A stretch of DNA of 49,911 nucleotides from a phage. Position 1 is the stretch's first letter. Each line of letters starts with the position of its first letter. The position numbers and the translations under genes were made by a program. The stretch is from the sequence record PZ445414.1; one strand, 5' to 3'. Positions 20,940-49,909 of this stretch are shown here, piece after piece. The notes under the pieces are model-generated. The model was not told the DNA's origin. It worked only from the letters and a program-made list of their open reading frames with translations, and made no database searches.

Positions 20940-20975
20940 AATGCCACCTCTCTAGTTTGCTTATTAAGTGCATTT

Positions 20976-21004
20976 AATATACAGGCGCGGCGTAATCATT
21001 TCAA
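20976..21004 (-). promoter_or_regulatory. sigma70-like promoter TTGAAA-N17-TATATT (minus strand)
   Basis: reverse complement of 20976-21004; upstream of minus gene starting 20939. Confidence 0.55.
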
Positions 21005-21125
21005 TGGCAAATGCAAAACCTTACCTTAATTGTTCTTTTTGTTTCTCTGTGTTCTCGATTGCACCCACCGCAGAATCGCACAACGTTTTAGAACAGAAAA
21101 AACAAAATAAATCATCTATAATATA

Positions 21126-21157
21126 TAATAAAATCAATAGTTTAGTTTATATGTATT
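21126..21157. repeat. conserved ~30-bp AT-rich element containing IHF-consensus-like AATCAATAGTTTA (copy A)
   Basis: taataaaatcaatagtttagtttatatgtat; near-identical copy at 40555. Confidence 0.5.
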
Positions 21158-21388
21158 TGTATGTTGTTATTTATTGTTTCCAATGTTTCAGTGTTAATTG
21201 ATGTACTGGCTTTCTTTAGTCTGGATATCTCTATTATCCATTTGATGTGTGTATTTATATAAACCCCACCGCAAATCCGTGAACAATGAAACAAAAAATA
21301 ACGACGTTTAAAATCATGCACTTAAGAGCTGATTTTGTTATCGGGGTTGAAAGATGTGTTTCGAGAACAGAAAAAACAATTGAAGGTA

Positions 21389-21416
21389 TTGACTAAACGC
21401 CACAAATGGCTACAAT
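21389..21416 (+). promoter_or_regulatory. sigma70-like promoter TTGACT-N16-TACAAT for recombination module
   Basis: ttgact 21389-21394, tacaat 21411-21416; ~30 nt upstream of exonuclease ATG. Confidence 0.6.
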
Positions 21417-21446
21417 GCACGTATACCAACACACAGGAGCGAAAGA

Positions 21447-26162: not shown

Positions 26163-27119
26163 TTACCGTGTCGGGAGTAAAGTCTCAGGCTTGTAAAGCT
26201 TTCGCTCTATCCCTTGCCGGAAATTATCGTTAACAGGAAGCATTACGTCAAGTCCTCTCTCCTCAGCGGCAATTATCACGTCCTGATCGGTTGACTTGCA
26301 CACCACGCGCATTTTTCGATCTCCTTTATACCGATGCGCAACAATCTCAACGTTATAACTTGAGAAGCAAGCCCACACCTCCTGGCCTGTAGATAGGTGA
26401 ATGTGTTGAGCATCAACCCAATCAACGCACAGATAGATCGTGTTGTCAGTTTTACCAGTCACCGCAACGGAGCCTCGCGTATAGTCCTTTGCATAGAAAC
26501 TTTTCTCGCCTAGCTCGTCAATCATGAGGATGTTACACATTTCATCATCTAAACCATCGTCATGCACAAGGTAGCAAGGGATTGCATGAATAAGCGATTC
26601 TCCGCCATTCTCCAGCGATTTTACGCCTACAGAGTACATTTCATCATCTGGCGGAGCGATGCCCTCAAAAACGCTTAGGGGCGTTTTTAGCACGCCTTTG
26701 GTTCTCTCCATTACTGCAACGCAGTTTTCATGTGGAGCCTGGGATCCAAAAGAGTAACCTGATGCGCGGGAGGCTCGCTTGTTCGCCTTAACTATATACT
26801 CCTGAGGAACCTTTCCGAGAAAGCGCCCTAAGATGTTGATGCACTCGCTATATGATTCGCCAGTGAGCTTCATTAGCCAGCCAATACCGCTATCGTTCCC
26901 ACAACCGTTGCACACTGCGCCGCCGTCTCCGTCAGTGCTAAGTTTGTCAGTCCAGCGGAATCTGTCTTTACCTCCGCAGTGGGGGCAAGGTTGGTGTTTC
27001 TTGTTGAAAACGTCATTGCTCAATCCGCAAAGGCTTTGTAGCGCATCGCGCCACATGCCTTTCATGTACGGCAAAACGTCCTCTTTCTGAAAAATCATGT
27101 TTGGGTGTACTTCTTGCAT
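26163..27119 (-). CDS. DNA primase (zinc-ribbon type, putative)
   Basis: CPHCGG ... CNGCG zinc-ribbon motif near N-terminus; ATG 27119 after GGAGCGAG; adjacent to helicase gene. Confidence 0.5.
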   Translation of the reverse strand: MQEVHPNMIFQKEDVLPYMKGMWRDALQSLCGLSNDVFNKKHQPCPHCGGKDRFRWTDKLSTDGDGGAVCNGCGNDSGIGWLMKLTGESYSECINILGRFLGKVPQEYIVKANKRASRASGYSFGSQAPHENCVAVMERTKGVLKTPLSVFEGIAPPDDEMYSVGVKSLENGGESLIHAIPCYLVHDDGLDDEMCNILMIDELGEKSFYAKDYTRGSVAVTGKTDNTIYLCVDWVDAQHIHLSTGQEVWACFSSYNVEIVAHRYKGDRKMRVVCKSTDQDVIIAAEERGLDVMLPVNDNFRQGIERKLYKPETLLPTR

Positions 27120-27131
27120 GACTCGCTCCAA

Positions 27132-27170
27132 TAAAAAAATCGCGTAGCCGGATGATACCAGATACGCGAT
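27132..27170 (-). terminator. terminator-like hairpin after HTH gene (minus)
   Basis: fwd aaaaaaa atcgcgta ... tacgcgat (8-bp stem, 16-nt loop). Confidence 0.4.
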
Positions 27171-27177
27171 CTTTGAT

Positions 27178-27618
27178 TTAGCTATTTGTGCTGTTTATGA
27201 AGTCCGACTCTTTCACTACGCGCAGCATTTCGTATCGGTCGCATTTCGTCGTTAACGCTTTGCCGTTTGAGTCAAATCTCAGATCTGGACGGCAGAATGA
27301 AGCGCGATAGCCCTTGCAGCCGTTTCGCTTATAGTCGGCGTGAACCTTTTCGGCTCCAGAAACGGAAATCATTCCGCGCTTGCGCCACTGCTGGATAACC
27401 TGGTGAGTAACCTTTAAGCGCCTTGTCATTTCTGCCTGAGATCCGTAATATTCGCAAACGGCATCCAGACGAGCACGCAATCCGGCTTTGACTTCATCCT
27501 TTAGAACGTAGTAGCCTGTTTTGCGCTTGCGCTTTTTCTTGTCTTTACCGCGCTTTACACCGTTGTTGCCATTGATTGTGCGCTTGTCAATTTCGCCAGT
27601 TGATGCAGCAATTTTCAT
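27178..27618 (-). CDS. HTH DNA-binding protein (Cro/YdaS-like, putative regulator)
   Basis: 146 aa from ATG 27618 (SD GGAGG); basic N-terminus; HTH-like SQAEMTRRLKVTHQVIQQWRKRGMIS. Confidence 0.45.
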   Translation of the reverse strand: MKIAASTGEIDKRTINGNNGVKRGKDKKKRKRKTGYYVLKDEVKAGLRARLDAVCEYYGSQAEMTRRLKVTHQVIQQWRKRGMISVSGAEKVHADYKRNGCKGYRASFCRPDLRFDSNGKALTTKCDRYEMLRVVKESDFINSTNS

Positions 27619-27629
27619 ATTAAACCTCC

Positions 27630-27649
27630 GATAGCACTTTTTGCTAAAA
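27630..27649 (+). promoter_or_regulatory. conserved box upstream of helicase gene
   Basis: gatagcactttttgctaaaa; TATTAT at 27669-27674. Confidence 0.5.
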
Positions 27650-27706
27650 ACACTCAAAACGTAGGAGCTATTATACATTCAATCGGTTAACGAATAAAGG
27701 TTAAAA

Positions 27707-29707
27707 ATGGCAATTCCAAATATTGACAAACAGCTTTCCGCTTTGGGTGAAGCGGTAATCAAGGCGATTCAAGATCGCTTTACGTTTGGCGGAATCACCC
27801 CATACCCTTACCAGTGCGTTGCGTACACTGAGATCGCAAAACGCATGAAAAATTACGAACATCCTTTCTTTGTGAAAGCGTCCGTATCTGCTGGCAAAAC
27901 AATGATTTTTGCAATGGTCGCGGCGCAGTGTCAGAGGATGGGGCTTAAAATGATGGTTCTCGCTCGCCAGGGTGAGATTGTGGATCAGGATTCAGAGGAG
28001 ATCAGTAATTTCGGAGTGCCTAACTCCGTCTACTGCGCGGCGCTGAAACTCAAGGGCGTACACTTCCCCATCGTGGTTGGCTCTGAGGGAACCGTTTCAA
28101 ACGGACTCTTTAAGGCGCTGGGCGACTACGTGCCGCACGTTATCGGGATTGACGAATGCCACCAGGTAGATTGGGAGGATTTAGCGGAGGCAATCGAAAA
28201 CGATGAGCCGTGGCAGCAAATGACCACGAAAAAAGGCGAGATTGTCCTGAATGGTGACGGCTCCCGCGCTCTCAACAATGACGGTGAGCCAATGGAGGGA
28301 ACCGGACGCACGCAATACACTCTTATAATTCGAGAAATGCAGCGCCGATGCAAAGAGACATACGGGCATGAGTTGCGCATTTTTGGAATGACTGGATCAG
28401 AATTTCGCGGCGTTGTTCCAATCCTGGTAGAAGATAAGCGCCAGCGCGGTTTCTGGCGTGAACAGGTGACGAACATTGATACCAACTACCTTATCAAGTT
28501 CGGCTCCGTTGTGCCTACAAACTTTGGCGGCGTAGATGGATTGGGTTATGACCTTTCAGAGTTCACCGCATCCAGCGAGGACGGAGTAGCAGACTTTGAC
28601 CAGAAAACCCTCCGAAAGATGGAGGAGAAGATCCATAAAGATGCAACCATGACGCAAAAAATCATGGCACGCGTGCATGAGATCTGCAAAGACCGCAACG
28701 GCGTGCTGGTAACTTGCGCTGGAGAGCGTCACTGCAAAGAGGCTGCCGCCGCACTTCCGCCAGGGGCAACATACAGGATCATCACTGGCAAGACCGGAGA
28801 GAAACAACGTAAAGAATGGTTAAAAGAGGCATTCGAGGGAAAAGTAAAATACATTTTCCAGGTTCAAGCACTAACAACTGGCGTAAACGTTCCATATTGG
28901 GATACGTCCGTTATCCTGCGCAAAATAGGATCGCTTACTCTGCTGATCCAGCTTTTGGGGCGCGGTATGCGACTTTTAAAGAAATGGCACATCGAGCAAG
29001 GATTCAAAAAAGACGATCACCTTGTTCTCGACTTTGCCGGATGCATGGACGAGTTGGGGCAGCTTTACTTTGATCCTATTCTGGAACAGGCGCAATATCA
29101 GCGACGTGGCGATAACGGAAAGGATCCCAAATTCTGCCCTGACTGCGGCACTGAAAACTCATTCTATGCACGCCGTTGCGTTCACGTTGACGAAAACGGG
29201 AATCGATGCGAGTATTTTTGGAAGTATCGAGAGTGCGAGGATCAGGTAGACCCGCGCACTAAAAAGGTTATCGTCAAAGGCTGCGGCACTAAAAACGACA
29301 TAGCCGCCAGGGTTTGCCGCTGCTGTGATGTGTCGCTCATTGACCCGAACGAAAAACTATCAGGCAAGCACTACACTAAGAATGATTGGTGCAATGTGAA
29401 ATCTTTCCGTGTCGATATGACCAAAAACCAGAGAGGGATCGTGTTCTGTTATGAGCTTGAGGCGCACGGGGAAACGTTCAAGGCTTATGAGCGATTCTTC
29501 CCTGAGTCTGACAACCAGATCTGCAAGACGCTATGGAGGCAAACGGCGCTCAAGCATATTGCAGATCGCAGGATTGCAGGTGTTACGGCGAGCTATCGCA
29601 ACGCTCGCAAGATTATGCAAAACGCGCATCACATTATGGCTCCGAAACGCGTTACGCATCGCAAAAACGCGAAAGGAGAGGACATTATTTATCATCGGGA
29701 GTTTTGA
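27707..29707 (+). CDS. ATP-dependent helicase (SF2, DEAH-like)
   Basis: 666 aa; Walker A SVSAGKTM, motif II GIDECHQV; C-terminal Cys clusters. Confidence 0.7.
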   Translation: MAIPNIDKQLSALGEAVIKAIQDRFTFGGITPYPYQCVAYTEIAKRMKNYEHPFFVKASVSAGKTMIFAMVAAQCQRMGLKMMVLARQGEIVDQDSEEISNFGVPNSVYCAALKLKGVHFPIVVGSEGTVSNGLFKALGDYVPHVIGIDECHQVDWEDLAEAIENDEPWQQMTTKKGEIVLNGDGSRALNNDGEPMEGTGRTQYTLIIREMQRRCKETYGHELRIFGMTGSEFRGVVPILVEDKRQRGFWREQVTNIDTNYLIKFGSVVPTNFGGVDGLGYDLSEFTASSEDGVADFDQKTLRKMEEKIHKDATMTQKIMARVHEICKDRNGVLVTCAGERHCKEAAAALPPGATYRIITGKTGEKQRKEWLKEAFEGKVKYIFQVQALTTGVNVPYWDTSVILRKIGSLTLLIQLLGRGMRLLKKWHIEQGFKKDDHLVLDFAGCMDELGQLYFDPILEQAQYQRRGDNGKDPKFCPDCGTENSFYARRCVHVDENGNRCEYFWKYRECEDQVDPRTKKVIVKGCGTKNDIAARVCRCCDVSLIDPNEKLSGKHYTKNDWCNVKSFRVDMTKNQRGIVFCYELEAHGETFKAYERFFPESDNQICKTLWRQTALKHIADRRIAGVTASYRNARKIMQNAHHIMAPKRVTHRKNAKGEDIIYHREF

Positions 29708-29709
29708 AT

Positions 29710-30126
29710 ATGGTTACTGACAAAGGCGATTATCTGGAATATTACGAGAGGGATCCGAGCGATACGCGCAAGGAAGATTCTCACCAGGTTGATTGTGTGG
29801 CGTGGTTGCGCCACCACTACCCACACTTGCTCTTTTGGCACACTGTAAACGAGGGGAGCAAGACAATCACCGCCGCGCTGCGTGACGAACAGGCCGGATT
29901 GCTAAAGGGCGTATCAGACTTTGTTATCCTGATTGGTTCTGGTAAATACCCGTTTGCAGCCATAGAGCTAAAGCAAGCCAACAAATCAGGCAAGCGCAAG
30001 GCTTCACCAGTCAGCGACAACCAGAAAGCTTTCTTGAGCAGGGTTAGACACTTGGGAGGTTTCGCAGCCGTTTGCTATGGCGTGAAGCAATTCAAGCTTG
30101 CAATTGCAGATCTCTTGCAGGAATAG
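29710..30126 (+). CDS. VRR-NUC domain nuclease
   Basis: 138 aa; motif DFVILIGSGKYPFAAIELKQ (D..E.K) typical of VRR-NUC; start ATG right after helicase stop. Confidence 0.6.
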   Translation: MVTDKGDYLEYYERDPSDTRKEDSHQVDCVAWLRHHYPHLLFWHTVNEGSKTITAALRDEQAGLLKGVSDFVILIGSGKYPFAAIELKQANKSGKRKASPVSDNQKAFLSRVRHLGGFAAVCYGVKQFKLAIADLLQE

Positions 30127-30141
30127 CACTTTTTGCTAAAA
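30122..30141 (+). promoter_or_regulatory. conserved box + hairpin + CATAAT upstream of lipoprotein gene
   Basis: aatagcactttttgctaaaa; inverted repeat ggcgca/tgcgcc; overlaps VRR-NUC stop TAG. Confidence 0.55.
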
Positions 30142-30198
30142 CAGGCGCAAAGGAATGCGCCATAATGCACCCAACGAAACAAACACGGAGAATTAACC

Positions 30199-30477
30199 AT
30201 GAAAAAGATGTTATCAGTAGTTGCTTTATCGCTTGCCATTGTCGGTTGCATGGATAAACCAAAAGCATATATTTGCGGAAATGAAGTGTTTGAGGTTACA
30301 AGCGAATACATGAAAGTTGTACAAGGTAAAAACACAGGCGTTGTAATGGATAATATCAGCAAAAATAAATACAAGCTGTTTACGCCAATTGGAACAGCTT
30401 TTTACACTGTTAACGATAGCACCATTGATGTTAGAGTCGGAATCTTTCAGCACACTTTAACTTGCGAGGTGAAATAA
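30199..30477 (+). CDS. lipoprotein (candidate superinfection-exclusion protein)
   Basis: 92 aa; signal peptide with lipobox LAIVGC; box-type promoter upstream. Confidence 0.55.
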   Translation: MKKMLSVVALSLAIVGCMDKPKAYICGNEVFEVTSEYMKVVQGKNTGVVMDNISKNKYKLFTPIGTAFYTVNDSTIDVRVGIFQHTLTCEVK

Positions 30478-36820: not shown

Positions 36821-36876
36821 CTTAAAGTCTCCTTGTTGGTTGACCTGTATTATAGGTCAACCATCTTACAGCCTTT

Positions 36877-39927: not shown

Positions 39928-40191
39928 TCAGTTCTTAACCTGGCTCATGCGATCCATTTCGCGATACCAGACGATCAAATCTTCCAGCGCCTGGAACAAG
40001 TCAGCTTTCTTTGTCTCTTTAATGGTGTCACATACTAGGTTGATATCACATTCCAGCACACCGAGATACTCACCATACTGGCGGCAACCTTCAATGTTGT
40101 CTGCCTTGCTGGTGCGGCGATTGTTACGCTGCGCACGGCAAATCAGGCTGATGATGTTGCTGGTTTCTTTGCTGGTGATGTGATAGGTCAT
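39928..40191 (-). CDS. hypothetical protein
   Basis: 87 aa from ATG 40191 (MTYHITSKE) placed by conserved leader/SD; box at 40248-40267. Confidence 0.45.
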   Translation of the reverse strand: MTYHITSKETSNIISLICRAQRNNRRTSKADNIEGCRQYGEYLGVLECDINLVCDTIKETKKADLFQALEDLIVWYREMDRMSQVKN

Positions 40192-40247
40192 TTCGTTTTC
40201 CTCATTTCGTTTCGATGAATGCATTATGCCAAATCCAGATCACGTAG

Positions 40248-40267
40248 TTTTAGCAAAAAGTGCTATT
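40248..40267 (-). promoter_or_regulatory. conserved box (minus)
   Basis: minus AATAGCACTTTTTGCTAAAA; CATAAT and leader CATCGAAACGAAATGAGGA follow. Confidence 0.55.
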
Positions 40268-40280
40268 CAATCGGTAGTTA

Positions 40281-40390
40281 GATGATTTGGTGATTTTCTG
40301 ACCTGCATTTTGATGGTTAGTTTGATGTGCGTCAGCTTTTGACGAGATTTGATGATTGTTGATTAGATTTGATTGAATTTGATTGTGGGA
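40281..40390. repeat. iteron-like array of ATTTGAT(G/T) repeats
   Basis: TTTGAT at 40309, 40321, 40348, 40358, 40367, 40378 with ~10-12 bp spacing inside 690-bp non-coding AT-rich region. Confidence 0.55.
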
Positions 40391-40554
40391 ATCAGCATGG
40401 TCTGACGATGCCGTTTTTGCGCTCTCGAAAACTCCGCTCTGTTATCTTCTGTTTACACTCGTTTCCTCTTGTTACCGAAAGTGCGGTGGCGTAGTTTGTT
40501 CGCGTTTTTCGCGTAGCAGAAACAAAAAAAACTTTTAATCCCCCTATAAACAAC

Positions 40555-40586
40555 TAATAAAATCAATAGTTTATTTTATATATATT
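40555..40586. repeat. conserved ~30-bp AT-rich element containing IHF-consensus-like AATCAATAGTTTA (copy B)
   Basis: taataaaatcaatagtttattttatatatat; matches WATCAANNNNTTR. Confidence 0.5.
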
Positions 40587-40851
40587 ATATTTGTTTTCAC
40601 TACGTTATACTTGTTCCACATGGTATGGGGTGGTTATGGGATTTTATTATTGGTGGTATTGGTTAATTTATAGGCATGTTCCGCTCAGGATGTGTGCGAC
40701 TCATCATTTCGTTGTGGTTGCTTTGGGTGACATATACATATTGATTATGGCCTCCGAAAAAACTGTAACAGCTGTAACATGCAAAAAACAGAATTTATCA
40801 TCATGCAAATCAACAACTTGCGATAAATTTTGTTTTTCGGCTCAAAAAAAA

Positions 40852-40880
40852 CTTGTGGAAACCGATTGTAACATGCATAA
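40852..40880 (+). promoter_or_regulatory. sigma70-like promoter TTGTGG-N17-CATAAT for rightward early array
   Basis: followed by leader CACCGAAACGAACAAACGGAGG and ATG 40914. Confidence 0.5.
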
Positions 40881-40913
40881 TGCACACCGAAACGAACAAA
40901 CGGAGGTAAAACG

Positions 40914-41339
40914 ATGTCAGATCAATCATTTGGCGACCAGTTGCGTGCAGCGGCGCGAATGCTGGCGAGTGGGGAGCGTGATGAAATTATCATGACCGAC
41001 TACCAGTTACAGCAAGCGTCCGGCAAGGAGAAAATCAACCCAAGCCATATCCGTACAACTATGGCGCGAGAGGTTCGCACCCTGGGGGCTATCAGCGTGA
41101 AGCGCATCACGGATCCGGTTGGCTACGTTTGCACATTCAACCCTGACCCGAAAAAGCGAGCGATTGCCAGCGACGAGCTACCAGCAATCAAGGCGCGTGC
41201 GGCTAACAAGGCACTGAAAGCGATTGCAGACGTGATGCCAAATCTCACATACCTGGAGGGCGAGCAGTTGCAGGGCGCTATCATTGCGGTGCAGCGCTAC
41301 CAGGATTTAATCAAGAAGCAAATCAACGAGGAGGTTTAA
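40914..41339 (+). CDS. hypothetical early protein
   Basis: 141 aa; sigma70-like promoter and conserved leader upstream; SD GGAGG. Confidence 0.5.
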   Translation: MSDQSFGDQLRAAARMLASGERDEIIMTDYQLQQASGKEKINPSHIRTTMAREVRTLGAISVKRITDPVGYVCTFNPDPKKRAIASDELPAIKARAANKALKAIADVMPNLTYLEGEQLQGAIIAVQRYQDLIKKQINEEV

Positions 41340-49378: not shown

Positions 49379-49909
49379 ATGAGCAGAGAAGAAAAACAAA
49401 AGCCATTCACGGCTTACAACTTCAAGAAGCTATATAACAAGCAATATGGCGACATTGCCACGTTAGGCAAGCAACACCGATACACGCCGGAGCAGGTTTT
49501 CAATCTTGCGGTCAAATACTTTGAGTGGGCGGAGTCCAACGCGCTAAAGGCGGCTGAATCTTCATCGTTCCAGGGTCGCACTTACCAGGACGAGGTAAAC
49601 AAGCCGCGCGTTTTCACGTTCAACGGTCTGCGCCTGTTTTGCGGCTGGTCGCGCTGTGCTATGGAGAAATGGAAGAAAGAGCCTGGCTTCTCTGAGGTCA
49701 TGGAGTTTATCGAATCCGTGATCTATGAGCAGAAATTCCAGCTTGCGGCTAACGGCGTGATTAACGCTGCATTCATCGCCAAAGACCTGGGAGTTGACCA
49801 GCCGACGCAAATCAACGTTAGCGCAAACTCCGAGTCAAGCGCTGCAATCGCAGAGGTTGGGGCTGATGAAGTGCGCGAGGCGGTTCGTGATATCCTGGCG
49901 GAGATCTGA
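49379..49909 (+). CDS. terminase small subunit
   Basis: 176 aa; SD GAGGAGG; position immediately upstream of TerL in circular map; typical small-terminase size and charge pattern. Confidence 0.65.
   Translation: MSREEKQKPFTAYNFKKLYNKQYGDIATLGKQHRYTPEQVFNLAVKYFEWAESNALKAAESSSFQGRTYQDEVNKPRVFTFNGLRLFCGWSRCAMEKWKKEPGFSEVMEFIESVIYEQKFQLAANGVINAAFIAKDLGVDQPTQINVSANSESSAAIAEVGADEVREAVRDILAEI

What the first reader, a model, noticed from the sequence alone, without database searches (positions are those of the whole stretch)
40225..40913. 690-bp AT-rich non-coding region with phased ATTTGAT repeats and an IHF-like element: candidate replication origin or packaging/regulatory hub
Seen in sequence: between divergent early arrays there is no convincing ORF, but six TTTGAT(G/T) repeats at ~10-12 bp phasing (40309-40385), poly-A tracts, TGTAACA repeats and a ~30-bp element (taataaaatcaatagtttattttatat, 40555-40586) that recurs almost exactly in the other AT-rich region (21126-21157) and matches the IHF consensus WATCAANNNNTTR. 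The second AT-rich region (20940-21446) also carries ATTTGATGTG once and a direct repeat AGAACAGAAAAAACAA (21092 and 21365). Inference: iterons for an initiator or terminase, with host IHF bending; both regions are divergent promoter hubs.
Basis: partly seen in the sequence, partly recalled or inferred. Interest (0 to 1): 0.55.

Follow-up and report, generated by a model that had tools for sequence, protein, structure and literature searches.

The report
Probable packaging-start site of a T1-like phage
The phased TTTGAT repeats lie where related T1-like phages have the first DNA-packaging cut (pac) mapped, between two outward-facing promoters, so this is most likely the phage's packaging-start signal and not a shown replication origin; it is a useful but fairly ordinary result.

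Summary
The window is the whole genome of Escherichia phage IsaakIselin (Bas10, Drexlerviridae, T1-like), rotated by 533 bases. The finding covers the roughly 700-bp gene-free gap between two diverging gene blocks.

The repeats are real. There are five exact TTTGAT and three one-mismatch copies, all on the + strand (40286-40383), and the last five are exactly 10 bp apart. This is far beyond chance, and the array is conserved in all six relatives of the genus compared.

In five relatives from four subfamilies, the mapped or recorded packaging end falls in or at the right edge of the equivalent short-repeat array: TLS (restriction mapping), T1 (start of the record), and MSK, SU57 and UDF157lw (read-based). 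The small terminase belongs to the P22 gp3 family. The best explanation is therefore a pac site, about 100 bp of phased repeats for the small-terminase ring, with the cut predicted near 40340-40440 and packaging running rightward.

The array is flanked by a known 21-nt-repeat promoter (leftward) and a sigma-70-type promoter (rightward). The AT-rich element at 40513-40612 and its copy at 21088-21187 are the two least stable stretches of the genome. They are duplicated in four subfamilies and their function is unknown; a replication origin is not excluded. The IHF match is a consensus match only. No RNA gene or conserved ORF was found.

The parts
40189..40268 (-). Leftward promoter and leader of bas10_0059. 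It holds the 21-nt Drexlerviridae repeat (ATAGCACTTTTTGCTAAAA, 40266-40248), an extended -10 (TG at 40231-40230, CATAAT at 40228-40223), the leader motif CATCGAAACGAA, the ribosome-binding site GAGGA (40203-40199) and the probable true start codon ATG (40191-40189).
   Evidence: The window has 20 copies of the repeat against 0.1 expected. Most of the copies show the same layout: repeat, -10-like box, a leader resembling CGAAACGAA, a GAGG-type ribosome-binding site and ATG. The element is described for TLS in PMC11447400. The strand was read.
40284..40385 (+). Array of eight phased TTTGAT-type units, starting at 40286, 40309, 40321, 40338, 40348, 40358, 40368 and 40378. This is the proposed recognition part of pac.
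   Evidence: Searches show the repeats and their statistics. Four of the five exact copies are invariant in seven Henuseptimavirus genomes. TLS record position 1, its assigned pac, aligns to about 40342.
40340..40440 (+). Predicted zone of the first terminase cut, with packaging running rightward. It includes the most conserved block outside the promoters, GATTGTTGATTAGATTTGATTGAATTTGATTGTGGGAATCAGCATGGTCT (40353-40402).
   Evidence: This is inferred from relatives. The ends lie 85 bp (T1), 120 bp (TLS), 143 bp (UDF157lw), 149 bp (MSK) and about 170 bp (SU57) to the right of the 21-nt repeat. Invariant columns among the seven genomes reach 72% at 40353-40377 and 88% at 40378-40402.
40513..40612 (.). 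AT-rich element: an A-run, CTATAAA, a shared 20-mer (40554-40573, containing the IHF-consensus match at 40561-40573) and a TATATATA stretch. It is the second least stable 100-bp duplex window in the genome. Function unknown.
   Evidence: Copies occur in both divergent gaps of IsaakIselin, TLS, T1 and UDF157lw.
40613..40760 (+). Stretch rich in G and T on the + strand (TGGTATGGGGTGGTTATGGG...TTGGTGGTATTGGTTAAT), homologous to the same position in Stevie and TLS. No function assigned.
   Evidence: The RNA fold z-score is 0.03.
40764..40873 (+). Three TGTAACA boxes (40764, 40773, 40867) and a 16-nt inverted repeat (40784-40799 and 40822-40837, 94% complementary). These are candidate operator sites for an unidentified regulator.
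   Evidence: TGTAAC or GTGAACA boxes are enriched in the two divergent gaps of T1 (9 against 0.6 expected), MSK (5 against 0.8), UDF157lw (5 against 0.7) and TLS (4 against 0.5).
40843..40913 (+). Rightward promoter and leader of bas10_0060 (DUF7174). It holds an A-run (40843-40851), -35 TTGTGG (40853-40858), a 17-bp spacer, -10 CATAAT (40876-40881), the leader CCGAAACGAA and the ribosome-binding site GGAGG (40902-40906). The ATG is at 40914.
   Evidence: The sequence was read. At the same position Samwise and N5822 have TTGACA and TLS and Stevie have TTGACG.
21088..21187 (.). Second copy of the AT-rich element, in the gap upstream of the recE-like exonuclease gene. It is the least stable 100-bp window of the genome and has no TTTGAT array beside it.
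   Evidence: The nearby recE promoter is TTGACT, 16 bp, TACAAT at 21389-21416.
49379..49909 (+). Small terminase gene (bas10_0001), the protein proposed to read the array. It lies about 9 kb downstream of the array in the direction of packaging.
   Evidence: Annotation. Pfam PF16677 GP3_package scores 52 bits against a cut-off of 29.4. PDB 3P9A, P22 gp3, matches at E = 7.8e-18.

Best explanation
The TTTGAT array (40284-40385) and the conserved block to its right (to about 40440) are the pac site of this headful-packaging T1-like phage.

Inferred mechanism: the ring-shaped small terminase (P22 gp3 family) binds about 100 bp of DNA that carries a short motif once per helical turn. This positions the large terminase for the first cut at or just right of the array. 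Packaging then runs rightward through bas10_0060 and the terminase genes for a little more than one genome length.

The rest of the gap is promoter DNA. A 21-nt-repeat promoter fires leftward. An A-run plus sigma-70-type promoter fires rightward. Between them lies an AT-rich module of unknown role that is also present upstream of the recE-like gene.

Shown: the repeats, their conservation, the terminase family, and the positions of the DNA ends in relatives. Inferred: that terminase binds the repeats, and where the cut lies in IsaakIselin itself.
For: - The repeat cluster is real and non-random.
- It is conserved across seven Henuseptimavirus genomes, including Samwise and N5822, whose right half of the gap has diverged. 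The most conserved block outside the promoters is 40353-40402.
- TLS: pac was mapped by restriction digests and the record was opened at it (PMC11447400). Record position 1 lies inside the homologous array (...GATGATGATTGATGTGTG|AGATTTTGTGATTGAAATTGATTTGATTTGATTAG) and aligns to window position about 40342.
- T1: the RefSeq record starts with the 2.8-kb repeat_region feature (read here as the terminal redundancy) inside an array of GATGTGATTGTTGC units, 85 bp from the 21-nt repeat.
- Read-based ends: MSK PhageTerm position 36,862, forward, p = 1.6e-9 (PMC8421802). The UDF157lw record was re-opened at the PhageTerm start (PMC10838988). The SU57 end lies at an abrupt change in coverage (PMC7718038). 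All three fall at the right edge of their arrays, within about 25 bp of each other in the homologous sequence.
- TGATTG occurs 11 times in the five arrays against 0.6 expected and is present in all five.
- The small terminase is of the P22 gp3 type; the crystal entry 3P9A holds nine chains.
- Ring terminases are modelled as wrapping about 100 bp of bent pac DNA that carries direct repeats (PMC4737164).
Against: - No packaging data exist for IsaakIselin or any member of its genus; the cut position is extrapolated.
- The TLS assignment has low resolution, and its final base was chosen by a 6-base resemblance to P22 pac. I find that resemblance is not above background: 13 of 22 bases, with 91 places in the genome scoring as well, and AGATTT occurs 42 times.
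- I could not check how T1 position 1 was determined.
- Density of the shared motif singles out the array in IsaakIselin, T1 and TLS but not in MSK or UDF157lw.
- For SPP1-type small terminases, the direct repeats were found not to drive binding (PMC4737164). Repeats at a pac site therefore need not be the recognition code.
Confidence: 0.6

Rival explanations
1. The TTTGAT repeats are iterons of a replication origin. A phage or host initiator binds them and opens the AT-rich element 130 bp away. The pac end nearby is a coincidence, or the two functions share the region.
For: - The repeats are direct, on one strand and at helical phasing.
- The second least stable duplex stretch of the genome lies 130 bp away.
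- Transcription diverges here and the GC skew turns here.
- No origin is known for any T1-like phage (PMC11447400 and PMC7718038).
Against: - The units are about 10 bp, not the 17-22 bp typical of iterons (my own knowledge).
- There is no DnaA box in either gap.
- No initiator-like protein flanks the gap: bas10_0060 is DUF7174 and bas10_0059 has no Pfam hit.
- The array is not copied along with the AT-rich module in the second region.
- The skew turn simply follows gene direction.
- The mapped DNA ends in relatives already explain the array.
Confidence: 0.12
2. The array is an upstream regulatory region for the leftward promoter, or for both promoters. It would act either as intrinsically bent DNA or as a row of sites for a phage regulator such as the HTH protein bas10_0033.
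For: - It lies about 70-170 bp upstream of the leftward promoter's predicted start.
- Its phasing of one unit per helical turn is typical of bent activating DNA and of response-regulator-type sites (my own knowledge).
- The phage encodes a Cro/YdaS-like HTH protein, with weak Pfam hits (E = 2.7e-4, below the cut-off).
Against: - None of the other 19 copies of the same promoter class was flagged with a tandem array of this kind: the genome-wide tandem-repeat scan finds one only at 40345-40385, though the upstream DNA of the other copies was not examined directly.
- Nothing links any regulator to TTTGAT.
- This does not explain why virion DNA ends map here in relatives.
Confidence: 0.12
3. Concerning the AT-rich module only (40513-40612 and 21088-21187): it is a pair of replication origins or DNA-unwinding elements, possibly fired by transcription. 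The flanking TGTAACA or GTGAACA boxes would be initiator sites.
For: - The two copies are the two least stable 100-bp windows, 4.8-5.4 sd from the genome mean.
- The module is duplicated in both divergent gaps in four subfamilies.
- The boxes are enriched in these gaps.
- Two-copy origin systems exist: P4 ori and crr, SPP1 oriL and oriR (my own knowledge).
Against: - There are no replication data.
- The neighbour of the primase gene that I tested as a candidate origin binder shows only weak Cro/YdaS-type HTH hits and no match to a solved origin-binding domain.
- AT-rich DNA with a TATAAT-like box upstream of early operons is equally expected for strong promoters.
- Part of the similarity between the two copies is low-complexity; matches appear in both orientations.
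Confidence: 0.2
4. The gap encodes a small RNA or small proteins missed by annotation.
For: Gene callers annotated short ORFs here in AS5 and BubbaBully. The gap is 91-96% identical among five relatives.
Against: - Rfam gives no hit at gathering score or at E up to 1.
- Fold z-scores are 0.23, 0.85 and 0.03.
- None of the eight ORFs stays open in all seven genomes. Most start with TTG or GTG and have odd composition.
Confidence: 0.05

Closest known systems
pac region of coliphages T1 and TLS (Drexlerviridae)
   Same: It is the same genomic position: the large gap between the diverging blocks of small genes, next to a leftward 21-nt repeat and about 9 kb upstream of terS. The TLS and T1 records are opened inside the homologous short-repeat array.
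   Different: The repeat array itself has not been described. The TLS paper states that no iteron-like repeats occur anywhere in that genome, and it assigns pac by a 6-base resemblance to P22. The unit differs by lineage: TTTGAT(G/T) here and in TLS and Stevie, GATGTGATTGTTGC in T1, ATTGTTGC and GCAATGAT in MSK, SU57 and UDF157lw.
P22 pac and gp3 small terminase
   Same: The small terminase is homologous to gp3 (Pfam PF16677; PDB 3P9A at E = 7.8e-18). Both phages package by the headful from a pac site.
   Different: P22 pac is a single 22-bp asymmetric site inside the terS gene (PMC9611059). Here the site is intergenic, about 9 kb from terS, and repetitive. Similarity to the P22 22-mer is at background level.
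SPP1 and SF6 pac (pacL, pacC, pacR)
   Same: The pac region carries several sets of direct repeats, overlaps promoters, and is modelled as about 100 bp of bent DNA wrapped around a small-terminase ring (PMC4737164).
   Different: The small terminase is of an unrelated family. SPP1 pac overlaps the start of terS. In SF6 the repeats did not determine binding in vitro.
ICP1 pac site
   Same: The predicted pac lies in a 489-bp intergenic region and not inside terS (PMC11417361).
   Different: It is an unrelated phage, and that paper reports no repeat array.
Iteron-type origins (lambda ori, plasmid Rep origins; P4 ori and crr)
   Same: Direct repeats lie near an AT-rich, easily melted segment. The AT-rich module comes in two copies, as in P4 ori and crr (my own knowledge).
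   Different: The units are about 10 bp. There is no initiator gene and no DnaA box. The array and the AT-rich module are not duplicated together.

Membership tests
pac site of a headful-packaging phage | The first terminase cut, seen as a fixed virion DNA end, maps to the site | not testable with these tools
   No reads or virion DNA are available for IsaakIselin. The feature is met in relatives at the homologous place: TLS, T1, MSK, SU57 and UDF157lw.
pac site of a headful-packaging phage | The phage encodes a small terminase of a family that reads pac sites | tested here: met
   PF16677 GP3_package scores 52 bits against a cut-off of 29.4. P22 gp3, PDB 3P9A, matches at E = 7.8e-18.
pac site of a headful-packaging phage | The small terminase binds the site, and the site is sufficient for packaging or transduction | not testable with these tools
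   This needs gel-shift or footprinting experiments and plasmid transduction assays.
pac site of a headful-packaging phage | The site is conserved in relatives at the same position | tested here: met
   The array is conserved in seven Henuseptimavirus genomes. Analogous arrays lie at the same place in TLS, Stevie, T1, MSK, SU57 and UDF157lw.
P22-type pac sequence | Match to the 22-bp P22 pac GAAGATTTATCTGAAGTCGTTA | tested here: not met
   The best match in the array is 13 of 22 bases, and 91 places in the genome score 13 or more.
Iteron-type replication origin | Several direct repeats of about 17-22 bp | tested here: not met
   The units are about 10 bp; Tandem Repeats Finder gives periods of 10 and 20.
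Iteron-type replication origin | An adjacent AT-rich unwinding element | tested here: met
   The window 40513-40612 is the second least stable in the genome and lies 130 bp from the array.
Iteron-type replication origin | A cognate initiator gene, or host DnaA boxes | tested here: not met
   The flanking genes are DUF7174 and a protein with no Pfam hit. bas10_0033 gives only weak HTH hits. No TTWTNCACA lies in either gap.
Iteron-type replication origin | Replication starts there | not testable with these tools
   This needs marker-frequency analysis or 2D gels.
IHF binding site | Match to WATCAANNNNTTR with AT-rich DNA on its 5' side | tested here: met
   AATCAATAGTTTA is at 40561 and 21132, and a further match is at 40808. 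The genome-wide count is not significant.
IHF binding site | Conservation of the match in relatives, and actual IHF binding | tested here: inconclusive
   The match is kept in the five close relatives. It is lost in Samwise, N5822, TLS, Stevie and T1 at the homologous place. Binding cannot be tested here.
Drexlerviridae 21-nt intergenic repeat (aaATAGCACnnnTTGnTAAAA) | The consensus, pointing in the direction of transcription, about 76 nt upstream of a start codon | tested here: met
   The copy at 40266-40248 on the - strand matches exactly. It lies 77 nt from the ATG at 40191, counting the two extra A residues. The definition comes from PMC11447400.
Structured non-coding RNA | A match to a known family, or a fold more stable than shuffled sequence | tested here: not met
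   Rfam gives no hit. Fold z-scores are 0.03 to 0.85.

The most novel reading that the evidence does not exclude
The duplicated AT-rich module (40513-40612 and 21088-21187), with its flanking TGTAACA or GTGAACA boxes, is the so far unknown replication origin system of T1-like phages. It would exist in two copies. One copy sits beside pac, so that replication start and packaging start share one control region.
Probability: 0.2. Interest if true: 0.55.

Novelty: new member of a known kind. Interest (0 to 1): 0.33.

Why it matters
T1-like phages are common laboratory contaminants, candidates for therapy, and generalised transducers. Their pac site has been placed only roughly, and in TLS the final base was chosen from a resemblance that is not statistically meaningful.

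A defined, conserved array of about 100 bp with one short motif per helical turn gives a concrete substrate for asking how a P22-gp3-type terminase ring recognises DNA. That question is still open for pac phages in general. The array would also let genomes of this family be opened consistently. It would help in designing or avoiding packaging of foreign DNA.

The duplicated AT-rich module is a specific place to look for the origin of replication, which is unknown for the family.

Tried and rejected
- P22 pac similarity as evidence. AGATTT occurs 42 times in the genome, and the 22-mer match is at background level.
- A single pac motif shared by the whole family. TGATTG is enriched in the five arrays taken together. 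As a density peak it picks out the array only in IsaakIselin, T1 and TLS.
- The idea that the 'transcriptional regulator' next to the primase gene is related to the P4 alpha origin-binding domain. It gives only weak Cro/YdaS/MerR-type HTH hits below the cut-offs, and no match to a solved structure.
- Features typical of the E. coli origin oriC. There are no DnaA boxes in either gap. GATC is over-represented genome-wide, 315 against 188 expected, but in the sequence as read it is absent between 40243 and 40919 and between 20895 and 21500.
- A non-coding RNA and small ORFs.
- GC skew as an origin signal. It tracks gene direction throughout.
- A sigma-70 promoter inside the AT-rich element. The consensus scan finds only a 9-of-12 match on the - strand, no better than shuffles. 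The conserved CTATA(T)AAT box has no -35 at 16-18 bp (my reading).
- Searches for transcriptome or origin-mapping papers on this family found nothing usable.
- PhageTerm failed or was uninformative for KanT1 and OzMSK.

Full report
**Identity and setting.** The window is the complete 49,911-bp genome of Escherichia phage IsaakIselin (Bas10, MZ501077.1; Drexlerviridae, Tempevirinae, Henuseptimavirus). It matches the record at 100% identity and is rotated, so that window position = record position minus 533. The finding (40225-40913) is the unannotated gap between bas10_0059, the first gene of a leftward block of small genes, and bas10_0060, the first gene of a rightward block. That rightward block runs on into the terminase and structural genes. 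The second AT-rich region (20940-21446) is the gap between leftward bas10_0026 and the rightward recE-like exonuclease gene.

**Observation.**
- TTTGAT occurs five times between 40309 and 40383, all on the + strand. The whole genome has 28 copies on that strand. None of 20,000 first-order Markov simulations of the region gave five copies within 100 bp.
- Three further units differ by one base (40286, 40338, 40358). The spacings are 23, 12, 17, 10, 10, 10, 10.
- Tandem Repeats Finder reports periods of 10 and 20.
- The 20-mer ATAATAAAATCAATAGTTTA at 21125 recurs with one mismatch at 40554; shuffles gave no such match.
- The similarity between the two regions extends over about 75-100 bp.
- Both copies fit the IHF consensus. 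That consensus is not enriched genome-wide: 5 matches against 2.6 expected.
- The other details (TGTAACA three times, A-runs, AGAACAGAAAAAACAA twice, ATTTGATGTG once) are present within 1-2 bases of the coordinates given.
- The count of 'six' exact repeats should be five.

**Nothing coding or RNA-like.**
- Rfam gives no match at gathering score or at E up to 1.
- Three segments fold no better than shuffled sequence, with z-scores of 0.23, 0.85 and 0.03.
- None of the eight ORFs of 30 aa or more stays open in all seven genus members.

**Promoters at the two edges.** The left 80 bp, read on the minus strand, holds an exact copy of the 21-nt repeat aaATAGCACnnnTTGnTAAAA. That repeat was described for TLS as 18 intergenic copies about 76 nt upstream of start codons, of unknown function (PMC11447400). 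IsaakIselin has 20 copies against 0.1 expected. Lined up, most copies show the repeat, then about 16-20 bases that in several copies form a GC-rich hairpin, then a TATAAT-like box, a leader resembling CGAAACGAA, a GAGG-type ribosome-binding site and ATG. That layout places the true start of bas10_0059 at 40191 and not 40224, as annotated in Henu7 and AS5. On the right edge, an A-run, TTGTGG, a 17-bp spacer, CATAAT and the same kind of leader precede bas10_0060. Samwise and N5822 have TTGACA at this position, and TLS and Stevie have TTGACG. 'Divergent promoter hub' is therefore correct.

**Conservation of the array.** Six genus relatives were aligned with IsaakIselin. In Samwise and N5822 the right half of the gap has diverged, yet the array is retained. 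Apart from the two promoter elements, the most conserved blocks across all seven genomes are 40353-40377 (72% invariant columns) and 40378-40402 (88%). These are the right end of the array and the bases just beyond it.

**The decisive lead: where DNA ends map in relatives.**
- TLS is terminally redundant. Its pac site was mapped by restriction digests of the submolar pac fragment, and the final base was chosen as AGATTT by resemblance to P22 pac (PMC11447400).
- The TLS record starts at that AGATTT. Joining the record's end to its start shows that this point lies inside a TTTGAT-type array. It aligns to about 40342 in IsaakIselin.
- The T1 RefSeq record begins with a 2.8-kb repeat_region feature, which I read as its terminal redundancy. 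Position 1 splits the first of two GATGTGATTGTTGC units, 85 bp to the right of a leftward 21-nt repeat.
- Three read-based determinations agree. PhageTerm put the MSK start at 36,862 in the forward direction, p = 1.6e-9 (PMC8421802). The UDF157lw record was re-opened at the PhageTerm pac start (PMC10838988). The SU57 end was chosen at an abrupt change in read frequency (PMC7718038).
- In sequence, all three lie at the right edge of an array of ATTGTTGC, GCAATGAT and GATGG units, 143-170 bp from the 21-nt repeat and within about 25 bp of one another.
- These five phages represent four subfamilies: Tempevirinae, Tunavirinae, Braunvirinae and Rogunavirinae.
- The hexamer TGATTG occurs 11 times in the five arrays against 0.6 expected. 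Its density singles out the array only in IsaakIselin, T1 and TLS.

**The reader protein.** The small terminase of IsaakIselin belongs to the P22 gp3 family: PF16677 at 52 bits, and PDB 3P9A at E = 7.8e-18, an entry with nine chains. Small terminases form rings, mostly nonamers (PMC9611059). For SPP1 and SF6, the pac region carries three sets of direct repeats, overlaps promoters, and is modelled as about 100 bp of bent DNA wrapped around the ring (PMC4737164). Eight units spread over 100 bp, at about one per helical turn, fit that picture. This is an inference, not a result. The same paper warns that the repeats did not determine binding in vitro.

**What I do not accept.** The resemblance to the P22 pac sequence carries no weight. 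The best match in the array is 13 of 22 bases, 91 places in the genome do as well, and AGATTT occurs 42 times. How T1 position 1 was fixed could not be checked.

**The AT-rich module.**
- The windows 21088-21187 and 40513-40612 are the two least stable 100-bp duplex windows of the genome. Their summed nearest-neighbour free energies are -104.6 and -108.5 kcal/mol, against a mean of -140.6 with sd 6.7.
- A homologous element lies in both divergent gaps of IsaakIselin, TLS, T1 and UDF157lw. It consists of a CTATA(T)AAT box, an ATTATTATTAT or AATAG stretch, and a TATATAT run. It often has an A-rich stretch on the left and a G/T-rich stretch on the right.
- TGTAAC or GTGAACA boxes are enriched in these gaps: T1 9 against 0.6 expected, MSK 5 against 0.8, UDF157lw 5 against 0.7, TLS 4 against 0.5, IsaakIselin 3 against 0.6.
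- Because the module is duplicated without the TTTGAT array, it is not part of pac as such.
- It could be a strong early promoter or bending element. It could also be an unwinding element of an origin, which is unknown for the family. I could not separate these.
- There are no DnaA boxes.
- The HTH protein encoded next to the primase gene shows only weak Cro/YdaS-type hits.
- The exact IHF consensus is lost outside the five close relatives.

**Verdict.** The location of pac in T1-like phages was already roughly known, so this is a new member of a known kind. The new points are the phased repeat array at pac, which the TLS paper states is absent, and the duplicated AT-rich module.

Noticed in passing
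window 40189-40224 (minus strand): The annotated start of bas10_0059 (ATG at 40224) lies inside the -10 and leader of its own promoter. The ATG at 40191, preceded by GAGGA at a 7-nt spacing, fits the layout seen at most of the 20 promoter copies. It is also the start annotated in Henu7 and AS5. The protein is then 87 aa, not 98.
   Followed up: partly
whole window, 20 sites listed (for example 41610, 30123, 31584, 37781): The 21-nt repeat, whose function is posed as an open question in the TLS paper, has a fixed anatomy in most copies. The repeat is followed by about 16-20 bases that in several copies form a GC-rich hairpin, then a TATAAT-like box about 22 bases after the repeat's TTGnTA, then a leader resembling CGAAACGAA, a ribosome-binding site and ATG. 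No -35 box lies at the normal spacing. This looks like a class of promoters that depends on an activator or an UP-element-like contact.
   Followed up: partly
window 40764-40873; T1 (L018) 29932-30267 and 469-495; UDF157lw (L021) 27098-27364; TLS (L019) 413-428 and 28769-28997: Short TGTAAC or GTGAACA boxes are concentrated in the two divergent intergenic regions across subfamilies, 4 to 15 times the expected number. These are possible operators of an unidentified regulator.
   Followed up: partly
whole window: GATC is strongly over-represented, 315 against 188 +/- 13 expected. This fits the phage's own Dam-like methylase. Both AT-rich gaps are free of GATC (none between 20895 and 21500, nor between 40243 and 40919).
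   Followed up: no
window 27609-27708: The third least stable 100-bp window of the genome lies in the gap between the HTH-regulator/primase operon (leftward) and the helicase gene (rightward). It carries a 21-nt repeat at 27631. This is another place to consider for replication initiation.
   Followed up: no
L008 (Enterobacter phage N5822, MW032452.1): This 78,128-bp 'complete, circular' record holds the region twice, at 1686-1915 and at 53337-53870. Its length is about 1.6 genome lengths of its relatives. It is probably an assembly artefact of a terminally redundant, permuted genome.
   Followed up: no
T1 (L018) 1-130: T1 has a second leftward 21-nt repeat (TTTTTAGCAAAAAGTGCTATCG) about 100 bp to the right of record position 1, that is, on the packaged side of its pac end. 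The other phages examined do not.
   Followed up: no
one search hit list: Homologues of bas10_0060 (DUF7174) appear in records named 'Campylobacter phage' (A134, A127, A15a; 22-47 kb, unannotated) and in 'Pseudomonas phage Motto', at 33-35% identity. Such hosts would be unusual for T1-like phages. Contamination or misassignment seems possible.
   Followed up: no
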